From the NCBI GenBank assembly GCA_017522105.1, contig JAFXAA010000030.1, positions 2,176 to 66,175 on the forward strand: a stretch of 64,000 nucleotides of DNA. The letters are read 5' to 3'. Below are positions 7,488 through 64,000 of this stretch, piece by piece. How positions within the stretch are numbered: position 1 is the first letter of the stretch; each line of letters starts with the position of its first letter. The translations under genes were made by a program, and so were the position numbers. The notes under the pieces are model-generated. The model did no database searches, was not told the origin of the DNA, and saw only the letters and a program-made list of their open reading frames with translations. Origin of the DNA: Bacteroidales bacterium (GTDB taxonomy: Bacteria; Bacteroidota; Bacteroidia; Bacteroidales; P3).

Positions 7488-7604
7488 ATATTGTGCTTGT
7501 TTTTCTATCCTTACTCCGGTCGCGGACAGGCACTGGCAAAACACGGGCACCGCATGGTGTTGGGTCTGACAAGTGGCTTGTTGCGCGAAAGCGTTGTCTA
7601 CGGC

Positions 7605-7795
7605 CTATGGCAGGTCTCCTGGCTTGCCTCCGCACGCCGCGCCTTCTCGGGGGGCGATATCCCCAATGGCTTCTTGCGGTGGCTCACAATCAGTGCTTTA
7701 CATTAATTGCACTGCACTCGTTGAGGCTCACAGTTGCGCGTCAGTCCGTGATTTTCACACGGTTCCCTATTGTCCGCACCGGGCGGGCCATAGCC
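7605..7795 (-). promoter_or_regulatory. cobalamin (B12) riboswitch in the nrdD leader
   Basis: The minus strand reads AAUAGGGAACCGUGUGAAAAUCACGGACUGACGCGCAACUGUGAG ... GCCAUUGGGG...CCGAGAAGGC ... AAGCCAGGAGACCUGCC (B12 box). Confidence 0.85.
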
Positions 7796-7807
7796 TTTTC
7801 GACGCTG

Positions 7808-7920: not shown

Positions 7921-8050
7921 CTACGGACTTCCTACGGCTGTTCTACGGTTGTTTAACGGTTGTTCTACGGTTGTTCTACGGTTTAAACCGTTAAACAACC
8001 GTAGAACAACCGTTAAACAACCGTAGAACAGCCGTACAAACTCCGTTGCG
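7921..8050. repeat. family A palindromic element, copy 1 (11-nt CTACGGTTGTT-type units, centre GTTTAAAC)
   Basis: Arms of about 53 nt pair with a single 2-nt mismatch. The 103-bp core 7934-8036 is identical to 18421-18523. Confidence 0.95.
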
Positions 8051-8131: not shown

Positions 8132-8139
8132 TATATTTG
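8132..8139 (+). promoter_or_regulatory. -7 box TATATTTG
   Basis: Upstream of pruA (ATG at 8200). Confidence 0.55.
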
Positions 8140-8199
8140 CACTTTGATAAAACACCTCCATACGGCAGGAAAACACAAACAATCAATAAAATAAACACT

Positions 8200-9834
8200 A
8201 TGAACAACAGCATTTTCATGTTTCCCAAGCCCGAGAACGAACCCGTTAAAGGCTATGCTCCCGGCAGCCCTGAAAGAGCGGAAATCCGCAAAGCCCTCGA
8301 CGAACTCTACGCCAAGGTGACCGAAATCCCTGCCATCATCGGCGGCAAGGAGGTCAAGACCAAGAATATGGGCGAAGTGGTGATGCCCACGGAGAACCAC
8401 CACGTGCTGGCCCGCTACCACAAGGTGGGCGAGAAGGAGGTGCAGGCCGCCATAGACGCCGCCATGAAGGCCCGCAAGGAATGGGCCGAGACTCCGTGGA
8501 TAGACCGCGCCAGCGTGATGATGAAGATTGCCACGCTCATCAGCGGCAAGTATCGCTACCTCATCAACGCCGCCACCATGCTCGGCCAGGGCAAGACCAC
8601 CATGCAGGCCGAGATCGACAGCGCCTGCGAGCTGGTGGACTTCCTTCGCTATAATACCTACTATGCCAGCCAGATATACAGCGACCAGCCCTGCTCTGAC
8701 AAGGGCACGCTGAACTATGTGACCTACCGCGCCATGGAGGGCTTCGTGTTCGCCATCACGCCGTTCAACTTCACCTCCATCGCCTCCAACCTCTGCCTCA
8801 GCCCCGTGCTGATGGGCAACGTGTGCATCTGGAAGCCCTCGACAACGGCCCTGCTCTCCAACTATATATTAATGAAGATATACAAGGAGGCAGGCCTGCC
8901 CGACGGCGTGGTGAACTTCCTGCCCGGCAGCGGCGCGCTTATTGGCAAGGTGGCCTTCGCCGACGAGAACCTCGCCGGCGTCCACTTCACCGGCTCCACC
9001 GCCACCTTCAAGGGCTTCTGGAAGGCCATCGGCCAGAACATCGACATCTACAAGACCTACCCGAAGATTGTCGGCGAGACGGGCGGCAAGGACTTCATCA
9101 TGGTGCACCGCAGCGCCGACCCCGACCAGGTGGCCACGGCCATCGTCCGCGGCGCCTTCGAGTTCCAGGGCCAGAAGTGCTCCGCCGCAAGCCGCGCCTA
9201 TGTGCCCAAGAGCATGTGGCCCAAGGTGGAGAAGACCGTGGGCAAGATGCTCAAGGAGATCAAGATGGGCGACGTGCGCGACTTCAGTGCCTTCGTCAAC
9301 GCCGTCATCGACGAGGCCTCCTTCGACAACTGCAAGCGCTACATCGATCACGCCAAGAAGAGCAAGGACGCCGAGATAGTCTTCGGCGGCAAGTGCGACA
9401 AGAAGAAGGGCTGGTTCGTGGAGCCCACCGTCATCCTGGCCAAGAAGCCTGACTACAAGAGCATGTGCGAGGAGATCTTCGGACCCATCATCACCATCTT
9501 CGTCTACGACGACAAGGACTATGAGAAGACCTGCCAGCTGTGTGACACCACGTCGCCCTACGCCCTGACGGGTGCCATCTTCGCCACCGACCGCAAAGCC
9601 CTTCGCGCCGGCTACGACCTGCTGAAGAATGCCGCGGGCAACATATACTTCAACGACAAGCCCACGGGTGCTGTCGTCGGCCAGCAGCCCTTCGGTGGCG
9701 CCCGCGCCAGCGGCACCAACGACAAGGCAGGCTCCTACCTCAACCTGCTGCGTTGGGTGAGCCCGCAGGCCGTCAAGGAGACCTTCGACCCCGCCAGCGA
9801 CTACAAGTACCCCTTCATCAGCAGCGCCAAGTGA
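8200..9834 (+). CDS. pruA: L-glutamate gamma-semialdehyde (1-pyrroline-5-carboxylate) dehydrogenase, aldehyde dehydrogenase family
   Basis: ALDH motifs HFTGSTATFKG, IVGETGGKDF and the catalytic Cys in GQKCSAASR. The start is placed at MNNSIFMFPKPENEP. Confidence 0.85.
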   Translation: MNNSIFMFPKPENEPVKGYAPGSPERAEIRKALDELYAKVTEIPAIIGGKEVKTKNMGEVVMPTENHHVLARYHKVGEKEVQAAIDAAMKARKEWAETPWIDRASVMMKIATLISGKYRYLINAATMLGQGKTTMQAEIDSACELVDFLRYNTYYASQIYSDQPCSDKGTLNYVTYRAMEGFVFAITPFNFTSIASNLCLSPVLMGNVCIWKPSTTALLSNYILMKIYKEAGLPDGVVNFLPGSGALIGKVAFADENLAGVHFTGSTATFKGFWKAIGQNIDIYKTYPKIVGETGGKDFIMVHRSADPDQVATAIVRGAFEFQGQKCSAASRAYVPKSMWPKVEKTVGKMLKEIKMGDVRDFSAFVNAVIDEASFDNCKRYIDHAKKSKDAEIVFGGKCDKKKGWFVEPTVILAKKPDYKSMCEEIFGPIITIFVYDDKDYEKTCQLCDTTSPYALTGAIFATDRKALRAGYDLLKNAAGNIYFNDKPTGAVVGQQPFGGARASGTNDKAGSYLNLLRWVSPQAVKETFDPASDYKYPFISSAK

Positions 9835-9835
9835 T

Positions 9836-9942
9836 TGAAGAGTGAAGGGTGAAGGATGAAGAATTCTTTGCCCGGAATAAAAAGAAATTGGCTGGCGTAG
9901 TCGCAACGACCGCGTCAGCCAATTCTTCATTCTTCACTCTTC
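9836..9942. repeat. word-repeat hairpin (GAAGnnT units) with an inner GGCTGACGCG hairpin; probable bidirectional terminator
   Basis: GAAGAGTGAAGGGTGAAGGATGAAGAATT ... AATTCTTCATTCTTCACTCTTC. The inner stem is TTGGCTGGCG...CGCGTCAGCCAA. It sits between the convergent pruA and FKBP genes. Confidence 0.7.
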
Positions 9943-13880: not shown

Positions 13881-14035
13881 AGTATGATAAGTTTATTTTT
13901 TTTTCGCATCGTCGTAGTCGGCAATGCGAACAGTTATATAGTTGCAATAGGGTAGGGCGGGGTGGGCGACAGCCATATGTCGCAGCCTCCAACAAGTGCC
14001 TTATAGACGCGAAAGCATTGCCGAAAAAATCGTAC

Positions 14036-14195
14036 AGGGCAGGTCTCCTGGCTTATCCCTCAAGGCCGAAGTCTTCTCGGAGACGCTTGTCTCCAATGAC
14101 GTTTGTTTTTCTGCCCATCAGCGGTGAATTACAGTTGCGCGACAGCTCATGATTTGCACATGATTCCCTCTTGGCAGCCCCATTACAAGGCTGAC
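14036..14195 (-). promoter_or_regulatory. cobalamin (B12) riboswitch
   Basis: The minus strand reads AAGAGGGAAUCAUGUGCAAAUCAUGAGCUGUCGCGCAACUGUAAU ... GUCAUUGGAGAC...CCGAGAAGAC ... UAAGCCAGGAGACCUGCC. Confidence 0.85.
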
Positions 14196-14268
14196 TCGGT
14201 CGATGTTATTATTTCAAAGTGCTGAATAATTGCCGTCTTGCGAAAGACCGTCTCTCAAAATGGCGATG

Positions 14269-18341: not shown

Positions 18342-18418
18342 CGCCTCCGCCACCCCGTCGGCATGACCTGCGGCATGCCCCTCCGCTCCCTTTTTTGTCC
18401 CCATCCTCACCGGCCCCG

Positions 18419-18536
18419 GTACGGCTGTTCTACGGTTGTTTAACGGTTGTTCTACGGTTGTTCTACGGTTTAAACCGTTAAACAACCGTAGAACAACCGT
18501 TAAACAACCGTAGAACAGCCGTAGGGACTCCGTAGA
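18419..18536. repeat. family A palindromic element, copy 2
   Basis: 18421-18523 is identical to 7934-8036. The right terminus GCCGTAGGGACTCCGTAG is complete and the left terminus is truncated. Confidence 0.95.
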
Positions 18537-18652
18537 GGGGCCGCGGGGGGCATGGAGGGTTGCCGGTGCGATGGAGTGTTGGTGGAGGTGTTGAATGTCA
18601 GATGATTGGTGCAAAATCGGCATTTTTTTACTGTAATATGGAAAAATAATTA

Positions 18653-27236: not shown

Positions 27237-27296
27237 GTGAGTTGCAGGCTGCGAGTTCTTGGGAGGCTGACGCCTCACTCGCGGCTTGCAACTCAT
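27237..27296 (+). terminator. long hairpin between ppdK and pckA with a GGCTGACGCC centre (no clear T-run)
   Basis: GTGAGTTGCAGGCTGCGAGT ... ACTCGCGGCTTGCAACTCAT, with an inner stem GAGGC-tgac-GCCTC. Confidence 0.55.
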
Positions 27297-36066: not shown

Positions 36067-36186
36067 CATCTTTCCTACCATCTGCAACTTCCATGCCAAA
36101 AGTTGTTATCAACATCCCCGTGTCAATACCACCGTCCGCCGTTGTACGCGGCTCCACTTTCTCCTGCCTCCCCATGCATCCTCACC

Positions 36187-36311
36187 GGAGTCCCTACGGC
36201 ATTTCTTCAGTAGTTCTTCAGTAGTTCTTCAGTAGTATTTCAGTGTTTGACTGAAGAACTACTGAAGAACTACTGAAGAACTACTGAAGAAATGCCGTAC
36301 CGGCTCCGTAC
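36187..36311. repeat. family B palindromic element, copy 1 (11-nt TTCTTCAGTAG units)
   Basis: GGAGTCCCTACGGCATT-(TCTTCAGTAGT)x3...loop TTTCAGTGTTTGAC...(CTACTGAAGAA)x3-ATGCCGTACCGGCTCCGTAC. Confidence 0.95.
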
Positions 36312-42075: not shown

Positions 42076-42185
42076 CTACGGAGTCCCTACGGCCGTTCTT
42101 CAGTAGTTCTTCAGTAGTTCTTCAGTCAAACACTGAAGAACTACTGAAGAACTACTGAAGAACGGCCGTAGGGGCTCCGTACCGG
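42076..42185. repeat. family B palindromic element, copy 2 (inverted loop orientation)
   Basis: CTACGGAGTCCCTACGGCCG-(TTCTTCAGTAG)x2-TTCTTCAGT-caaac-ACTGAAGAA-(CTACTGAAGAA)x2-CGGCCGTAGGGGCTCCGTACCGG. Confidence 0.95.
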
Positions 42186-44912: not shown

Positions 44913-44961
44913 CAAGCGGAAAGAGAGACAAGGATTGCAGGCTGAAGCCTGTGTATCATAC

Positions 44962-45067
44962 GGTTGGGCAAGTCTTATACGACCAGCTCCCATTGAATCC
45001 CCCAGGGTAGGAATACAGCAAGGGTGTTTGGTTGTAGCGGTGCGATATAAACAGCTTGCCCTTTTTT
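44962..45067 (+). ncRNA. ffs: signal recognition particle RNA (small bacterial SRP / 4.5S type)
   Basis: Helix-8 signature at 45004-45020: AGG-GUA-GGAA-UAC-AGCA, i.e. a GGAA tetraloop flanked by the symmetric-loop AGG/AGCA. The closing helix is GGGCAAG (44966-72) / CTTGCCC (45055-61), followed by T6. A promoter lies upstream. The 5' boundary is uncertain. Confidence 0.65.
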
Positions 45068-51225: not shown

Positions 51226-51257
51226 ATATTTTTGACATTCCTTCCCTGCGTATCCCC

Positions 51258-51388
51258 CACGGAGCCCCTACGGCATTTCTTCAGTAGTTCTTCAGTAGTT
51301 CTTCAGTAGTATTTCGGTGTTTGACTGAAGAACTACTGAAGAACTACTGAAGAACTACTGAAGAAATGCCGTAGGGGCTCCGTAGGGG
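51258..51388. repeat. family B palindromic element, copy 3
   Basis: The core differs from copy 1 by one substitution (TTTCGGTG vs TTTCAGTG). The 17-nt termini ACGGAGCCCCTACGGCA / TGCCGTAGGGGCTCCGT are perfectly complementary. Confidence 0.95.
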
Positions 51389-51479
51389 ATTGGGGGCAGA
51401 ACTGTGGAATGTAGGCGGTGTCGAAATGTTAAATTTTAGGAAAATTCACCGTCGGGCTTGTCGTGTTGGGGAAATTTCG

Positions 51480-60947: not shown

Positions 60948-61754
60948 ATGGAATGGTTTGAAGCTCTTATCCTTGGCATCATCCAAGGCCTAACAGAATA
61001 CCTGCCGGTCAGCTCCAGCGGTCATCTGGCCATAGGCGCCAACCTCTTCGGCCTCAGCGGAGAAGAGAACCTCACCTTCACCGTTGCCGTCCATGTGGCC
61101 ACCGTGCTCAGCACCATCGTCATCCTTTGGCGTGAGATAGTGTGGCTTATCACTGACCTGTTCAAGTTCCGCTGGAACGAAGGCACCAAGTACATCGTCA
61201 ACATTATCATCTCCATGATACCTGTTGGCATCGTCGGTCTCTTCTTTAAGGACAAGGTGGAAGCTATTTTCGGCAGCGGACTCCTCGTGGTGGGCATCTG
61301 CCTGCTGGTCACTGCCACGCTGCTGGCCTTTAGCTACTGGGCCAAACCGCGCCAGCGTGAGACTATCTCGCCCCTGCACGCCTTCATCATCGGCCTTGCA
61401 CAGGCCCTCGCCGTGCTCCCCGGCCTCTCGCGCTCCGGCAGCACCATAGCCACTGGGCTTCTGCTGGGCAACAAGAAAGAGCGTCTCGCGCAGTTTTCAT
61501 TCCTCATGGTCATCCCCCCGATCCTCGGCGAAGCGCTGCTCGACGTCAAGGACATAGCCGAGATGGGCGTCAGCCAGGCAATGGCCGGCCTGCCGCCACT
61601 CTCACTCCTCGTGGGCTTCCTCGCCGCCTTCGTCTGCGGATGCATAGCATGCAAGTGGATGATCAACATCGTCAAGCGCGGCAAACTCATCTGGTTCGCT
61701 CTCTACTGCGCCATCGTCGGCACACTGACCATCGTCCTCCCCTACGTCCTCTGA
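60948..61754 (+). CDS. uppP: undecaprenyl-diphosphate phosphatase
   Basis: BacA motif [14 protein letters not shown] and [10 protein letters not shown]. Confidence 0.9.
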
Positions 61755-62647
61755 TGGTAACTGTAGAGCAGCTGCAGGCAGGCATCGTCCTCCCCATCGA
61801 CAAACCGCGGCAGTGGACCTCCTTCCAAGCCGTCAACAAGATAAAGGCCGTGGTGCGCAACACCTACGGCCAACGCGACGCAAGCGGCGCGAAGGCCGGC
61901 CCCAATGGCGGCCTTAAGAAATTCAAGATAGGCCATGCCGGCACCCTCGACCCCTTGGCTACAGGCCTCCTCCTCGTATGCCTCGGCAAGGCCACCAAGA
62001 CCATCCCAACCCTGCAGGACGGCGACAAGGTGTACACCGGCACCATGGTGCTTGGCGCCACAACGCCATGCTACGACCTTGAGCGCCCCATAGACCGCTA
62101 CTACCCCTACGAGCACATCACTCCCGAGCTCCTGCAGCAGACGCTGCCGCAGTTCACAGGCACCATCATGCAGGTGCCGCCAATGTTCAGCGCCGTGAAA
62201 ATCAGCGGCCAGAGGGCTTACGAGTATGCACGCCTCGACGACCCCACAGTCACCATCCAACCCAAGCCCGTCAACATCTACAGCTTCGAGATTACGGACT
62301 TCCGCCCGGGGAATGAAGAATCTGAATGTGTTAATGCGTCAATGCGTGAATGCGTTAGTACTGACGCGTCAGCCACTAACGCATTAACACATTCACACAA
62401 TAACACATTAAAAAAAGCCCACCATCTCTACGACAACCCGCTCGGCACCGTCCCCGCACACCTTCCGCAGGCCGACTTCCGCATCCATTGCGGCAAGGGC
62501 ACCTACATCCGCTCCCTCGCCCGCGACCTCGGTCTCGCCCTCGGCAGCGGCGCCTTCCTCTCGGCCCTCCGCCGCGAGCAGATAGGCTCCTACAACGTCG
62601 CCGACGCCCTCCGCCTCGACGAGGTGGAAGCCTACCTCACCAAATAA
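61754..62647 (+). CDS. truB: tRNA pseudouridine(55) synthase, carrying an in-frame palindromic insertion
   Basis: Catalytic motif GHAGTLDPLATG and the CGKGTYIRSLARDLG segment. The start is placed at MVTVEQL, overlapping the uppP stop (TGATG). Confidence 0.9.
   Translation: MVTVEQLQAGIVLPIDKPRQWTSFQAVNKIKAVVRNTYGQRDASGAKAGPNGGLKKFKIGHAGTLDPLATGLLLVCLGKATKTIPTLQDGDKVYTGTMVLGATTPCYDLERPIDRYYPYEHITPELLQQTLPQFTGTIMQVPPMFSAVKISGQRAYEYARLDDPTVTIQPKPVNIYSFEITDFRPGNEESECVNASMRECVSTDASATNALTHSHNNTLKKAHHLYDNPLGTVPAHLPQADFRIHCGKGTYIRSLARDLGLALGSGAFLSALRREQIGSYNVADALRLDEVEAYLTK
62311..62417. repeat. word-repeat palindromic element inside the truB coding sequence
   Basis: GAATGTGTTAATGCGT(CAATGCGTGAATGCGT)TAGTA-CTGACGCGTCAG-CCACTAACGCATTAACACATTC. 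It is locally AT-rich and has no stop codon in the truB frame. Confidence 0.8.
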
Positions 62648-62802: not shown

Positions 62803-64000
62803 TTACCTTATCACCACCACCTTGCGGGCGGGATAGGCGCCAATCTTAATCATATAGGTACCACTGACGGGTGCGTCGAAGTATAGTGGAGTGTAGTCGT
62901 CCTGCTTGGTGGCTAAAATACGCCCGTTCACGTCATAGAGCGTCACTCTGTTGCCGTCGGCGCCTTCCACGACTATCTGGCCTTGACTTGAATACACTTT
63001 GGCATTCAGTGCTTCGACGCCATTGATGGCTTCATGGGTTATATAAACCGTGTCGTGAATGATGACGGTGTCGTGCAGCCAGATGGTATCAAATTGCGTC
63101 AACCACAACGTGTCTGTAAGCGTCAACGTGTCGTATATGTAATTGTCTATGGTGTCATAAACGGTGTTGGTGATAGTGTCAAATTGTGTCACCGTCAGTG
63201 TGTCAACCACTATTGTCGTATCATGTACAGCGTAGGGCACGTCTATGTAGGTGGTGTCGTGTACTTCAATGTAAGTAGTGTCATGTACGGCATACGGTAT
63301 ATCGATGTAGGTGGTGTCGTGTACTTCAATGTAAGTAGTGTCATGTACGGCATACGGCACATCTATGTAGGTGGTGTCATGTACGTCTATGTAAGTGGTG
63401 TCATGTACGGCATACGGCACATCTATGTAGGTGGTGTCGTGTACGTCTATATATGTGGTGTCATGCACAGCGTATGGTATGTAGGTAGTATCATGCACAT
63501 TGATGTAGGTGGTGTCGTGTACGTCTATATATGTGGTGTCATGCACAGCGTATGGTATGTAGGTAGTATCATGCACATCGATGTAGGTGGTGTCGTGTAC
63601 ATCAACGTTAATAGTGTCATATAGCACCACTGTGTCTTGCCAAGGTTCGCCGTCGGCGACAAAGAAGGCTGTCAATGATAAATCCTGCAATACAGCAAAA
63701 GTGTAGGGGTTGTATGTAGATCCATTGCTCCAATGTGTGAAACTGTAACCGCTATATGGTGTTGCAGAAACTGTAATTGGTTGCCCATACTCTCTATTAC
63801 CGGCACCGCTGACTGAGCCGTGAGCCAAATTGTCGACTTGAACGTCAACTGCATGGACATCAATAGCGAAATAGGCAGTATATATTTTGTTGTCATCGAA
63901 CACAAAACGACGTGGATTTTCGGTATTGCCGTCATTCCATTGAATGAAGTGGTAGTGGGGTATTGGGATTGCAAAAATCAGTGACGTACTGTTGAGGTAC
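62803..64000 (-). CDS. T9SS type-A cargo protein with Listeria-Bacteroides-type repeats and an HDTTYI tandem-repeat stalk (5' end outside the window)
   Basis: The frame stays open upstream of the track start (a GTG at 63903) to the window edge (...HYHFIQWNDNGNTENPRRF...). C-terminus KVYSSQGQIVVEG...YDVNGRILA...GTYMIKI. Confidence 0.8.
   Translation of the reverse strand, partial: YLNSTSLIFAIPIPHYHFIQWNDGNTENPRRFVFDDNKIYTAYFAIDVHAVDVQVDNLAHGSVSGAGNREYGQPITVSATPYSGYSFTHWSNGSTYNPYTFAVLQDLSLTAFFVADGEPWQDTVVLYDTINVDVHDTTYIDVHDTTYIPYAVHDTTYIDVHDTTYINVHDTTYIPYAVHDTTYIDVHDTTYIDVPYAVHDTTYIDVHDTTYIDVPYAVHDTTYIEVHDTTYIDIPYAVHDTTYIEVHDTTYIDVPYAVHDTTIVVDTLTVTQFDTITNTVYDTIDNYIYDTLTLTDTLWLTQFDTIWLHDTVIIHDTVYITHEAINGVEALNAKVYSSQGQIVVEGADGNRVTLYDVNGRILATKQDDYTPLYFDAPVSGTYMIKIGAYPARKVVVIR
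63205..63612 (-). repeat. coding tandem repeat: 14 HDTT(Y/I)I units organised as near-identical 60-nt double units
   Basis: For example, 63241-63300 and 63301-63360 differ at only about 4 positions. The encoded unit is VHDTTYI(D/E)VHDTTYIDVPYA. Confidence 0.9.

What the first reader, a model, noticed from the sequence alone, without database searches (positions are those of the whole stretch)
62311..62417. Palindromic word-repeat element inserted in frame inside truB
Within the truB ORF, an AT-richer ~105-nt segment forms a hairpin. GAATGTGTTAATGCGT pairs with ACGCATTAACACATTC, and the centre is the perfect 12-nt palindrome CTGACGCGTCAG. The arm includes tandem AATGCGT words, and there are duplicated TAACACATT words on the 3' side.

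It translates without a stop into GNEESECVNASMRECVSTDASATNALTHSHNNTLKK. This segment lies between two conserved TruB regions, upstream of FRIHCGKGTYIRSLARDLG. At 297 aa, this TruB is longer than typical Bacteroidetes TruB proteins, which I recall being around 230-240 aa.

The insertion also shares GAATGAAGAAT and GGCTGACGCG with the 9836-9942 element. It resembles the in-frame insertions known for Rickettsia palindromic elements.
Basis: partly seen in the sequence, partly recalled or inferred. Interest (0 to 1): 0.65.

Follow-up and report, generated by a model that had tools for sequence, protein, structure and literature searches.

The report
In-frame palindromic repeat inside truB
An 86-base selfish DNA hairpin element sits in frame inside the tRNA-modifying gene truB of an uncultured rumen Bacteroidales bacterium, and copies of the same element sit in frame in at least six other unrelated genes in gut and rumen metagenomes, which resembles the palindromic elements of Rickettsia but occurs in a free-living gut bacterium.

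Summary
Window 62311-62416 is a 38% GC segment inside a 63% GC truB. It holds an 86-nt imperfect palindrome (62324-62409) made of four 8-nt AATGCGTN words, a CTGACGCGTCAG centre and four reverse words. It folds far better than shuffles (z -5.7) and reads through in frame.

- Same-species contigs carry a different hairpin element at this site, and relatives about 95% identical carry a short non-hairpin linker.
- The 86-nt element belongs to a dispersed family. Homologous copies (89% mean identity) lie in frame in NqrB, two GH78 rhamnosidase sites, an ABC-F ATPase, a NUDIX-like protein and an amidohydrolase. All are read in the only stop-free frame, as ECVNALMRQCVS.DA.ATN.LTQSHNNA.
- The peptide shows no purifying selection and the arms show no compensatory covariation.
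- truB itself is under purifying selection.
- The insert lies in a predicted disordered loop at a beta-hairpin turn.
- One probable RNA contig retains the element.

The best reading is a selfish, non-autonomous palindromic repeat that is tolerated as a translated loop, as RPEs are. It is not an RPE member. Two loops, in TruB and in ABC-F, are each occupied by several different hairpin families. This hot-spot behaviour is unexplained. I found no description of the family in the literature I could search.

The parts
61754..62647 (+). truB coding sequence (297 aa), the host gene. The catalytic GHAGTLDP and GKGTYIRSLARD motifs are intact.
   Evidence: ORF. Pfam TruB_N 2.5e-45 and TruB_C_2 3.7e-09. 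A 97%-identical 297-aa protein is called in two other assemblies. Flanks are under purifying selection, pN/pS 0.06-0.26.
62311..62416 (+). Strain-variable segment (106 nt, 37.7% GC) that differs completely between otherwise 95-98% identical truB alleles.
   Evidence: DNA alignment of alleles. blastn breaks at 62307/62414. RNA-run contig joint 62310->62417, and a loose end carrying the allele-C sequence before 62417. GC content.
62324..62409 (+). The 86-nt core element of the dispersed AATGCGT-word palindromic family. Translated in its only open frame as ECVNASMRECVSTDASATNALTHSHNNT.
   Evidence: nhmmer profile hit 1-86, E 1.3e-25. Ungapped alignment with 10 copies from other genes, 89% mean column identity. 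Frame +1 is open and the other + frames are closed in 11/11 copies.
62325..62359 (+). Left arm: four 8-nt words (AATGTGTT AATGCGTC AATGCGTG AATGCGTT) plus AGT.
   Evidence: the repeat finder D2 and I1.
62361..62372 (.). Central perfect palindrome CTGACGCGTCAG. It contains the GGCTGACGCG/CGCGTCAGCC core shared with other hairpin elements.
   Evidence: Sequence. Exact GGCTGACGCG at 62365-62374(-) and 9911-9920(-). The same core is in allele B of L083 and in the family consensus.
62375..62409 (+). Right arm: reverse-complement words (ACT AACGCATT AACACATT CACACAAT AACACATT), 86% complementary to the left arm.
   Evidence: the repeat finder D1 and I1. The conserved C.A mismatches become G.U on the minus strand.
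62309..62323 (+). GGGAATGAAGAATCT, a 5' flank made of GAAGAAT-type words. It is shared with the alternative allele B and with the 9836-9942 element, and may be a remnant of an earlier occupant.
   Evidence: Alignment of window and L083. Word search.
62410..62416 (+). A7 run that closes the variable segment (encodes KK).
   Evidence: Sequence. An A6 run also follows the copy in L115.
62426..62482 (+). Clade-conserved part of the TruB loop expansion (LYDNPLGTVPAHLPQADFR). It is not part of the mobile element.
   Evidence: Invariant or nearly invariant columns L225-F242 in 32 homologues. Present in L001-L032.
9836..9942 (.). Related intergenic word-repeat hairpin (GTGAAGG/GAAGAAT words, GGCTGGCG...CGCGTCAGCC centre) that starts two bases after the stop codon of ORF 8137-9834. 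Its 22-nt arm AATTCTTCATTCTTCACTCTTC is identical to the arm of truB allele B.
   Evidence: Sequence. Fold -58.8 kcal/mol, z -8.8. Arm identity with L083.

Best explanation
Window 62324-62409 is one copy of a dispersed, non-autonomous palindromic repeat family. The family consensus is 86 nt: four AATGCGTN words, the centre TTAGTGCTGACGCGnCAGCCACTAA, and four reverse words.

The family has spread in the genomes of rumen and gut Bacteroidales. It behaves as selfish DNA. Copies land in many places, and inside genes only those survive that lie in the single stop-free frame and in a structurally permissive loop.

In truB the copy occupies a disordered, hypervariable linker at a beta-hairpin turn of the catalytic domain. 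It is transcribed with the gene. Translation into a roughly 35-residue unconstrained loop is inferred and has not been shown. TruB stays functional.

**Shown here**
- The hairpin and the open reading frame.
- Polymorphism at this site between near-identical strains.
- Homologous in-frame copies in unrelated genes.
- No selection on the encoded peptide and no compensatory covariation in the arms.
- Purifying selection on the truB flanks.
- Presence of the element in one probable RNA contig.

**Inferred**
- Mobility itself.
- The mobilising enzyme. With no target-site duplication and a hairpin architecture, a single-strand, hairpin-recognising HUH/Y1-type transposase or a recombination or template-switch process seems more likely than a DDE transposase.
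- Translation of the insert.
For: **Family membership**
- An nhmmer profile built from 5 copies finds full-length (1-86) copies at E 1e-13 to 1e-26 in many metagenome loci.
- Eleven copies align without gaps at 89% mean column identity.
- In-frame hosts, in the same orientation:
  - NqrB (PF03116)
  - GH78 rhamnosidase catalytic domain (five contigs, with tandem expansion of the left half)
  - a second GH78 enzyme, in its N-terminal region
  - an ABC-F ATPase
  - a NUDIX-like protein
  - an amidohydrolase-like protein
- A RimO/MiaB-like protein carries the element in the opposite orientation.
- Two copies lie on one 314-kb contig (L101 and L121).
- In DNA runs that hold this strain, other contigs of similar depth (25-32x against 21x) match only 62364-62411 and have unrelated flanks.

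**Selection filter**
- Frame +1 has no stop in 11/11 copies, while frames +2 and +3 have 1-7 stops.

**Neutral peptide**
- Variable columns by codon position are 13/8/14, and codon differences are 179 nonsynonymous to 64 synonymous.
- The arms show no compensatory signal: 75.5% of cells pair against 74.8% in shuffles.

**Polymorphism**
- L083 is 97.2% identical over 3.8 kb (98.5% in the truB flanks) but carries a different hairpin.
- L084/L085 lack a hairpin (z -0.1).
- No GTDB representative of the clade has a hairpin at this site.

**Host gene intact**
- pN/pS is 0.06-0.26 in the truB flanks.

**Permissive site**
- AF2 pLDDT is below 50 for residues 190-230, which lie between strands 171-184 and 239-246.
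- The same turn is 5-6 residues long in M. tuberculosis TruB (1sgv) and human TRUB1 (8jfx).

**Foreign composition**
- 37.7% GC against 63.3% for the rest of truB.

**Transcription**
- A 380-nt contig in run X25 spans 62217-62596 without a gap.
Against: - No transposition event, target-site duplication or partner transposase was found, so mobility is inferred from distribution only.
- truB has no clean empty site. The element replaces the linker rather than adding to it, and the ABC-F copy also replaces three codons.
- The same two loops are occupied by several different hairpin families. Simple random insertion followed by selection does not obviously predict this.
- The element is 0/114 different between two strains whose truB flanks differ at 7.6% of synonymous sites. 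This needs recent transfer or constraint.
- The only transcript evidence is one assembled contig from a run whose RNA label is a guess.
- Protein-level searches had too little power to size the family.
Confidence: 0.75

Rival explanations
1. Hot-spot cassette model, which extends rather than replaces the best explanation. The word-repeat hairpins form a modular superfamily moved by a hairpin- or site-directed mechanism. That mechanism targets existing hairpins or particular loop-coding sites and swaps one element for another, so the same codon position is repeatedly rewritten.
For: - In TruB the same site holds the AATGCGT element (window), a GAAGAAT-word element (L083, same species), a GAGAGTG-word element (L086) and a GC-rich GCCTCACCCCC...GGGGGTGAGGC hairpin (L219, z -9.2).
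- In ABC-F orthologues at least 88% identical, one position is either empty or holds the AATGCGT element, the GCCTCACCCCC family, an 11-nt-word hairpin or a direct word array.
- Two families therefore share two hot spots whose flanks are unrelated.
- The GGCTGACGCG core recurs in families with different arms.
- The element is identical (0/114) in backgrounds that differ at 7.6% of synonymous sites.
Against: - Only permissive loops can be observed, so reuse of a site may simply reflect selection.
- The GC-rich and 11-nt-word families lack the shared core.
- The excess of GGCTGACGCG at one mismatch is not significant in the window (16 against 9.95 expected).
- No enzyme or reaction intermediate was found.
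Confidence: 0.25
2. Local origin. The hairpin arose in place, by slippage and inverted duplication within a low-complexity, fast-evolving TruB linker, and is not a mobile element.
For: - The site is an ancestral hypervariable linker, and many relatives have tandem-repeat sequence there (PEN, NSQL and SSS runs).
- TruB has a second site with a variable number of tandem 13-aa repeats.
- The arms are tandem words, which are prone to slippage. The GH78 copies show tandem expansion.
Against: - Homologous 86-nt copies, with the same word order, centre and conserved mismatches, sit in at least six unrelated genes.
- The segment is 25 GC points below its host gene.
- It is identical in diverged strains yet absent from sister strains.
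Confidence: 0.04
3. Selected function. The hairpin is kept in truB because the RNA or DNA structure does something, for example intragenic attenuation, control of mRNA stability or translation pausing, or an antisense RNA. Alternatively the Cys-containing peptide may add a function to TruB.
For: - The fold is strong (z -5.7).
- There are zero differences between strains with diverged flanks.
- The minus-strand RNA hairpin is more stable than the mRNA-sense one in 11/11 copies, because the conserved mismatches are C.A on the sense strand and G.U on the antisense strand. This is a non-random asymmetry.
Against: - Same-species and sister strains lack the element or carry unrelated elements at the site.
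- There is no covariation and no constraint on the peptide.
- There is no Rfam family. The only hits are generic miRNA-like hairpins far below threshold.
- No U-run follows the hairpin on the sense strand.
- The asymmetry may be inherited from the master copy or may come from avoidance of stop codons.
Confidence: 0.07
4. Artefact or removable element. The segment is an assembly chimera, or it is excised at the RNA or protein level in the manner of an intron or intein.
For: - Palindromes are hard to assemble.
- The peptide starts near a Cys and ends in HNN. This loosely recalls intein termini.
Against: - The identical truB-plus-element sequence is held by seven runs from five studies at a word share of 1.00. 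Contigs from the four runs that were laid down had 0-2 differences and no joints. It is also in two ENA assemblies.
- A probable RNA contig retains it.
- At 29-35 aa it is far too short for a HINT fold, and the residue after HN is Asn or Ala, not Cys, Ser or Thr.
Confidence: 0.02

Closest known systems
Rickettsia palindromic elements (RPE-1 to RPE-10; Ogata et al. 2000, as summarised in PMC10969869 and PMC3733652)
   Same: Short palindromic repeats present in multiple copies. Many are inserted in frame in unrelated housekeeping genes. Each family encodes a conserved peptide in one frame. The insertions appear compatible with protein fold and function. No known transposase.
   Different: - Different phylum and lifestyle: a free-living rumen Bacteroidales bacterium rather than an obligate intracellular alphaproteobacterium.
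- Shorter: 86 nt against about 100-150 bp.
- The arms are built from tandem 8-nt words whose copy number can expand.
- Several unrelated families reuse the same codon position.
- No sequence relationship was tested or is expected.
BrickBuilt MITE of Porphyromonas gingivalis (Klein et al. 2015, PMC4596501, as cited in PMC10969869)
   Same: A Bacteroidales host. A small non-coding repeat element that contains an internal array of short tandem repeats.
   Different: BrickBuilt is reported as strictly intergenic (PMC10969869). It has terminal inverted repeats around a direct-repeat minisatellite. The element here is a hairpin whose two arms are themselves mirrored word arrays, and it is found in frame inside genes.
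REP elements of the CGTC-tagged super-family (Di Nocera et al. 2013, PMC3733652)
   Same: - Palindromic repeats with a GACG/CGTC motif, found in some Bacteroidetes.
- Some units are intragenic.
- No dedicated transposase is known.
- RPE-4 and RPE-6 were assigned to this super-family.
- The core here is GGCTGACGCG/CGCGTCAGCC.
   Different: CGTC REPs are 20-40 bp, with 8-9 bp stems, 4-5 nt loops and a CCA tail. Here the GACG/CGTC motif lies at the centre of an 86-nt structure flanked by AT-rich word arrays. The match to the CGTC consensus was not tested.
Intragenic enterobacterial small mobile repeats (RU-1/2/3, ERIC; Delihas 2007, PMC2759123)
   Same: MITE-like repeats that carry open reading frames and are occasionally found inside genes, where they contribute peptide segments.
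   Different: Those are mainly intergenic with rare intragenic cases. In this family most of the full-length copies recovered are in frame inside genes, although the search pattern and the contig set may bias that count.

Membership tests
Rickettsia palindromic elements (RPE) | Multi-copy palindromic repeat able to form a stable hairpin | tested here: met
   z -5.7 for the truB copy. More than 14 full-length copies in held loci.
Rickettsia palindromic elements (RPE) | In-frame insertion in unrelated protein-coding genes, with a family-specific peptide | tested here: met
   Seven independent same-orientation in-frame sites, all read as ECVNA..SHNNA.
Rickettsia palindromic elements (RPE) | Sequence homology to one of the RPE-1 to RPE-10 consensus sequences, in a Rickettsia or Rickettsiales host | not tested
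   No RPE consensus was available in the tools. The host is Bacteroidales (Bacteroidales small SRP RNA; closest genomes). It is therefore filed as 'works like', not as a member.
MITE (miniature inverted-repeat transposable element) | Terminal inverted repeats on a small non-autonomous element | tested here: met
   35-nt arms, 86% complementary. The whole element is one long inverted repeat.
MITE (miniature inverted-repeat transposable element) | Target-site duplication flanking the element | tested here: not met
   No direct repeat flanks the 86-nt core at any of seven independent sites (flanks printed). The 9-bp GACTTCCGC repeat at 62297 and 62474 lies 27 nt upstream and 64 nt downstream of the 86-nt core and is simply the DFR codons occurring twice.
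MITE (miniature inverted-repeat transposable element) | Ends related to those of a full-length IS that supplies a transposase in trans | not tested
   No complete genome of the lineage was available, and no transposase-linked copy was seen in the held loci.
REP / CGTC-tagged REP | A 20-40 bp unit with an 8-9 bp stem, a 4-5 nt loop, an unpaired CGTC tag and a CCA tail | tested here: inconclusive
   The centre contains GACGCGTC and AGCCA, but the unit is 86 nt and the motif is central and paired. It was not compared with the published consensus, because the figure is not held.
Intein / self-splicing insertion | A HINT domain of at least about 130 aa, with N-terminal Cys/Ser and C-terminal His-Asn followed by Cys/Ser/Thr | tested here: not met
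   The insert is 29-35 aa, and the residue after HN is N or A in the copies.
Intrinsic (rho-independent) terminator | A GC-rich hairpin followed by a U-run on the transcribed strand | tested here: not met
   The hairpin is AT-rich and is followed by A7 on the sense strand. The gene continues in frame for 77 codons.
Any Rfam RNA family | Score at or above the family gathering threshold | tested here: not met
   The best hit is mir-3912, at 35.7 bits against a threshold of 95. All hits are generic hairpin matches.

The most novel reading that the evidence does not exclude
Rumen Bacteroidales may carry a modular superfamily of word-built palindromic elements. Its families would have different arm words, and some would share the GGCTGACGCG core. 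An unknown hairpin-directed mechanism would insert them into, and exchange them at, specific loop-coding positions of conserved genes. The result would be that the same codon of TruB or ABC-F is repeatedly rewritten with a new in-frame peptide cassette. That would be a previously unrecognised mode of targeted intragenic mobile DNA, and a source of variation in protein loops.
Probability: 0.25. Interest if true: 0.85.

Novelty: new variant of a known kind. Interest (0 to 1): 0.66.

Why it matters
In-frame palindromic insertions have been treated largely as a curiosity of Rickettsia, and are often linked to relaxed selection in intracellular bacteria. Here a comparable phenomenon appears in abundant free-living gut and rumen Bacteroidales. 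It affects housekeeping genes (truB, nqrB, an ABC-F ATPase, rimO) and carbohydrate-active enzymes (GH78).

Three consequences follow.

1. Selfish hairpin DNA can add translated loops to proteins in large, competitive populations.
2. Much of the length variation seen in rumen MAG proteins may be mobile-element sequence rather than assembly error or true domain gain. This matters for annotation, orthology calling and structure prediction.
3. The reuse of identical positions by different families offers a tractable natural system for asking how such elements choose or replace their targets. That question is still open for RPEs and for CGTC REPs.

Tried and rejected
- **Protein-level census of the family.** An exhaustive phmmer search with the 35-aa window peptide found one 57-aa protein. 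These short, low-complexity queries lack statistical power, so the family size remains unknown.\n- **The metagenome DNA pattern.** AATGCGTNAATGCGTNAATGCGT returned more than 120 loci, most of them unrelated 8-nt tandem arrays from soils and sediments. Only about 20 are true family members.\n- **Target-site duplication.** None was found. The 9-bp GACTTCCGC repeat noticed early is the DFR codon triplet occurring twice and does not abut the element.\n- **Covariation test for a selected hairpin.** No signal.\n- **Rfam.** No family matched.\n- **A clean empty site for truB.** Not available. All alleles differ across the whole linker. The ABC-F gene gave a better filled-versus-empty comparison.\n- **The GGCTGACGCG core as a genome-wide signature.** At one mismatch it is not significantly enriched in the window.\n- **Viral contigs.** The GAAGAAT-arm motif occurs in 6 IMG/VR contigs and the AATGCGT array in 1, but they give no clear link to a phage vector.\n- **Intein, intron, terminator and assembly-artefact readings.** All were considered and rejected, as set out in the rival explanations and the membership tests.
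Full report
**1. What is in the sequence**

The ORF 61754-62647 on the + strand encodes a 297-aa TruB. Pfam TruB_N covers aa 55-186 and TruB_C_2 covers aa 253-294. The gene lies in the order dnaN-ftsX-DUF3098-uppP(bacA)-truB.

Inside it, 62311-62416 is 37.7% GC, against 63.3% for the rest of the gene. This segment contains:
- four 8-nt words on the left, AATGTGTT AATGCGTC AATGCGTG AATGCGTT;
- the perfect palindrome CTGACGCGTCAG at 62361-62372;
- four reverse words on the right, AACGCATT AACACATT CACACAAT AACACATT.

The 35-nt arms are 86% complementary. As RNA, 62300-62430 folds at -41.0 kcal/mol, against -22.9 +/- 3.2 for shuffles (z -5.7, 0 of 200 shuffles as good). The segment reads through in frame as GNEESECVNASMRECVSTDASATNALTHSHNNTLKK.

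The strings shared with the intergenic hairpin at 9836-9942 are real.

**2. The organism and the TruB site**

The window carries a Bacteroidales small SRP RNA. The closest species-level genomes are uncultured rumen Bacteroidales MAGs (RUG377, RUG197, RGIG6769), at 70-77% TruB identity.

In this clade (L001-L032) TruB has an expansion between FEITxFRPG and the catalytic-domain strand DFRIHCGKGTYIR. The expansion has two parts: a hypervariable linker of about 17-45 aa, and a conserved LYxNPLGxVPxHLPQADF stretch. Other Bacteroidota TruB proteins lack the whole expansion and are about 210-230 aa long.

In M. tuberculosis TruB (1sgv) and human TRUB1 (8jfx) the equivalent turn is 5-6 residues. Here it is 54 residues. 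An AlphaFold2 model (mean pLDDT 70) places residues 190-230 at pLDDT below 50, between strands 171-184 and 239-246. The element therefore sits in a predicted disordered loop at a beta-hairpin turn.

**3. Polymorphism**

| Contig(s) | Relationship to the window | What occupies 62311-62416 |
|---|---|---|
| L081, L082 | 98.3% identical over 4.1 kb | The identical element |
| L083 | 97.2% over 3.8 kb; 98.5% in the truB flanks | A different hairpin: GAAGAAT words and the centre GGGCTGACGCGG (-56.8 kcal/mol, z -7.8). Its 22-nt arm is identical to the arm of the 9836-9942 element |
| L084, L085 | About 95% identical in the truB flanks | A 60-nt-shorter linker with no hairpin (z -0.1) |
| L086 | About 86% identical | A GAGAGTG-word hairpin (z -4.0) |

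None of the 32 GTDB representatives has a significant hairpin at this site. Contigs from transcriptome-labelled runs show the alternative alleles breaking exactly at 62310/62417. One 380-nt contig in run X25 (labelled 'RNA?', a guess) spans 62217-62596 with the element and no gap.

Seven DNA runs from five studies hold the element-bearing sequence. In the four that were laid down, the truB contigs carry the element with 0-2 differences and no joints. The element is not an assembly artefact.

The truB flanks are under purifying selection, with pN/pS of 0.06-0.26. The 114-nt variable segment shows 0 differences between the window and L081, although those two differ at 7.6% of synonymous sites in the flanks. 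This points to recent acquisition or transfer of the allele.

**4. The element is a member of a dispersed family**

A metagenome scan for three consecutive AATGCGT words returned mostly unrelated tandem arrays. It also returned clear homologues with the same left words, centre and right words. A profile built from five copies then found full-length 86-nt matches in more than 14 loci. Eleven copies align without a single gap, at 89% mean column identity.

| Host | Locus | Orientation relative to the gene |
|---|---|---|
| NqrB | L127 | Same, in frame |
| GH78 rhamnosidase catalytic domain, with 2-4 tandem copies of the left half in three contigs | L115, L132, L106, L095, L183 | Same, in frame |
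| Another GH78 enzyme, N-terminal region | L177 | Same, in frame |
| ABC-F ATPase | L121, L141 | Same, in frame |
| NUDIX-like protein | L107 | Same, in frame |
| Amidohydrolase-like protein | L101 | Same, in frame |
| RimO/MiaB-like enzyme | L140 | Opposite |
| ORF ends | L144, L113, L157 | Opposite |
| Intergenic | L089, L139 | Not applicable |

All same-orientation copies are read in one frame, as ECVNALMRQCVS.DA.ATN.LTQSHNNA. That frame is the only one without stops in 11 of 11 copies. The constant frame is therefore explained by selection against the other two frames.

Two copies lie on one 314-kb contig. In runs that hold this strain, other contigs of similar depth match only the element and have unrelated flanks.

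The window has 8 long hairpins in 64 kb, against 4 in 206 kb of related species' loci. The proliferation of hairpins is thus specific to this lineage.

**5. What constrains it**

- **Peptide.** Across seven independent sites, variable columns fall 13/8/14 on codon positions 1/2/3. Codon differences are 179 nonsynonymous to 64 synonymous. The peptide is not under purifying selection.
- **Arms.** For the in-register pairing, 75.5% of cells pair, against 74.8% in shuffles, with only four double changes. There is no compensatory signal. The palindromy is inherited from the family consensus rather than maintained at each copy.
- **Strand asymmetry.** The conserved mismatches are C.A on the sense strand and therefore G.U on the antisense strand. 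As RNA, the antisense hairpin is the more stable one in 11 of 11 copies, usually by about 10 kcal/mol. This could come from stop-codon avoidance in the right arm, because a perfect word palindrome would place TAA in frame. It could also come from selection for a weaker structure in the mRNA, or from a strand-specific step in propagation. I cannot tell which.
- **Target-site duplication.** None flanks any copy.
- **Rfam.** No family matches.

**6. Hot spots**

ABC-F orthologues at least 88% identical carry one of five things at a single position:
- nothing (NVCY|RDLIDDY, L214);
- the AATGCGT element (L121);
- a GC-rich GCCTCACCCCC...GGGGGTGAGGC hairpin (L215 at -63 kcal/mol, and L217);
- an 11-nt-word GGAGTGCAAGG hairpin (L216, -51 kcal/mol);
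- a direct GAAG-word array (L218).

The TruB of another species (L219) carries the GCCTCACCCCC-family hairpin (-69.6 kcal/mol, z -9.2) at exactly the TruB site studied here. At least two families therefore share two hot spots whose flanking sequences are unrelated.

There are two possible reasons. These loops may be among the very few permissive positions, with a high insertion flux. Alternatively, the elements may target or replace resident hairpins. The data do not separate these.

**7. Interpretation**

The best-supported reading (confidence about 0.75) is that the segment is a selfish, non-autonomous palindromic repeat. It is tolerated as a transcribed, and presumably translated, disordered loop in a functional TruB.

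Mobility is inferred from the element's distribution, its composition and its polymorphism between strains. The mechanism of movement is unknown. The absence of a target-site duplication, together with the hairpin architecture, makes a DDE transposase unlikely. This leaves a single-strand, hairpin-specific HUH enzyme, or recombination or template switching, as candidates.

The rival readings fare as follows.
- **In-place origin** is contradicted by the copies in other genes.
- **Selected RNA or peptide function** is contradicted by the absence of the element from sister strains and by the lack of covariation or peptide constraint.
- **Artefact or excision** is contradicted by the independent assemblies and by the RNA contig.

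**8. Comparison with what is known**

In behaviour the closest system is the Rickettsia palindromic element. RPEs are multi-copy palindromes inserted in frame in unrelated genes, each family has its own peptide, and no transposase is known (PMC10969869, PMC3733652).

The element here is not a member of that family. It has a different phylum, size and architecture, and homology was not tested. Compared with MITEs, it has inverted repeats but no target-site duplication. Compared with the BrickBuilt MITE of P. gingivalis, it shares a Bacteroidales host and internal short tandem repeats, but BrickBuilt is reported as strictly intergenic (PMC10969869). CGTC-tagged REPs share a GACG/CGTC motif and the lack of a transposase, but they are much smaller (PMC3733652).

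Full-text searches found no description of in-frame palindromic elements in Bacteroidales.

**9. Verdict**

I rate it a new variant of a known kind: RPE-like in-frame palindromic repeats, here with word-built arms and shared insertion hot spots, in free-living rumen Bacteroidales. Interest is about 0.66.

Noticed in passing
window 7923-8046, 18405-18538, 36186-36308, 42077-42181, 51252-51390: Five long intergenic hairpins (arms of 50-67 nt, 87-98% complementary). Their arms are tandem 11-nt words (CTACGGTTGTT or CTTCAGTAGTT) capped by CTACGGAGTCCCTACGGC-type outer stems. The loops GTTTG and CAAAC show that both orientations occur. This is a separate dispersed word-hairpin family.
   Followed up: partly
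window 27238-27295: A hairpin with a 19-bp stem (-46.4 kcal/mol, z -7.9) in the gap between the stop of a pyruvate phosphate dikinase-like ORF (ends 27227) and a PEP carboxykinase-like gene. Its loop contains GGCTGACGCC, one mismatch from the core of the truB element.
   Followed up: partly
window 61868-61906 (TruB aa 39-51): A second variable site in TruB. The 13-aa unit GQRDASGAKAGPN is present in 0, 1, 2 or 3 or more tandem copies among close homologues (for example P0012, P0024, P0047), and is absent in others.
   Followed up: partly
window 62803-63903 (- strand): The gene downstream of truB encodes a 366-aa protein full of HDTTYIDV(PYAV) tandem repeats. Similarity of the window to the otherwise 97-98% identical contigs L081-L083 stops at 62847, and those contigs carry an LRR_5 protein instead. 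The locus is variable between strains.
   Followed up: partly
window 7592-7807 and 14021-14214 (- strand); 44959-45065 (+): Two cobalamin riboswitches and a Bacteroidales small SRP RNA, all above the Rfam gathering scores.
   Followed up: no
L101 4163-5395: The amidohydrolase-like protein that carries an AATGCGT element also has PHTSHLSPLTSHL near its N-terminus and TESLSDKVTEPLSHSATQSLS near its C-terminus. These look like translations of further word-repeat or hairpin insertions in the same gene.
   Followed up: no
L010, TruB region aligned to window aa ~160-172: Another species' TruB has ARIKNEELKNKNDGPRAKP in place of LDDPTVTIQPKP. KNEELKNKN is what GAAGAAT-type words encode, so this may be an in-frame element at a different TruB site.
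   Followed up: no
ABC-F homologues P0133, P0169, P0183 (alignment A4 columns 65-87) and P0134, P0144, P0155, P0236 (columns ~585-625): The ABC-F protein has at least two further sites with lineage-specific insertions: AAEGERRASGLAFPSQSSAGGAT after NIIM, and variable segments in the C-terminal linker.
   Followed up: no
L208-L213 (IMG/VR contigs): The arm AATTCTTCATTCTTCACTCTTC(ATTC) occurs in six viral contigs, often preceded by GCGGCAGCAA or GCGGTAGCAA. Only L209 shows the matching left arm. In the others the right arm stands alone.
   Followed up: partly
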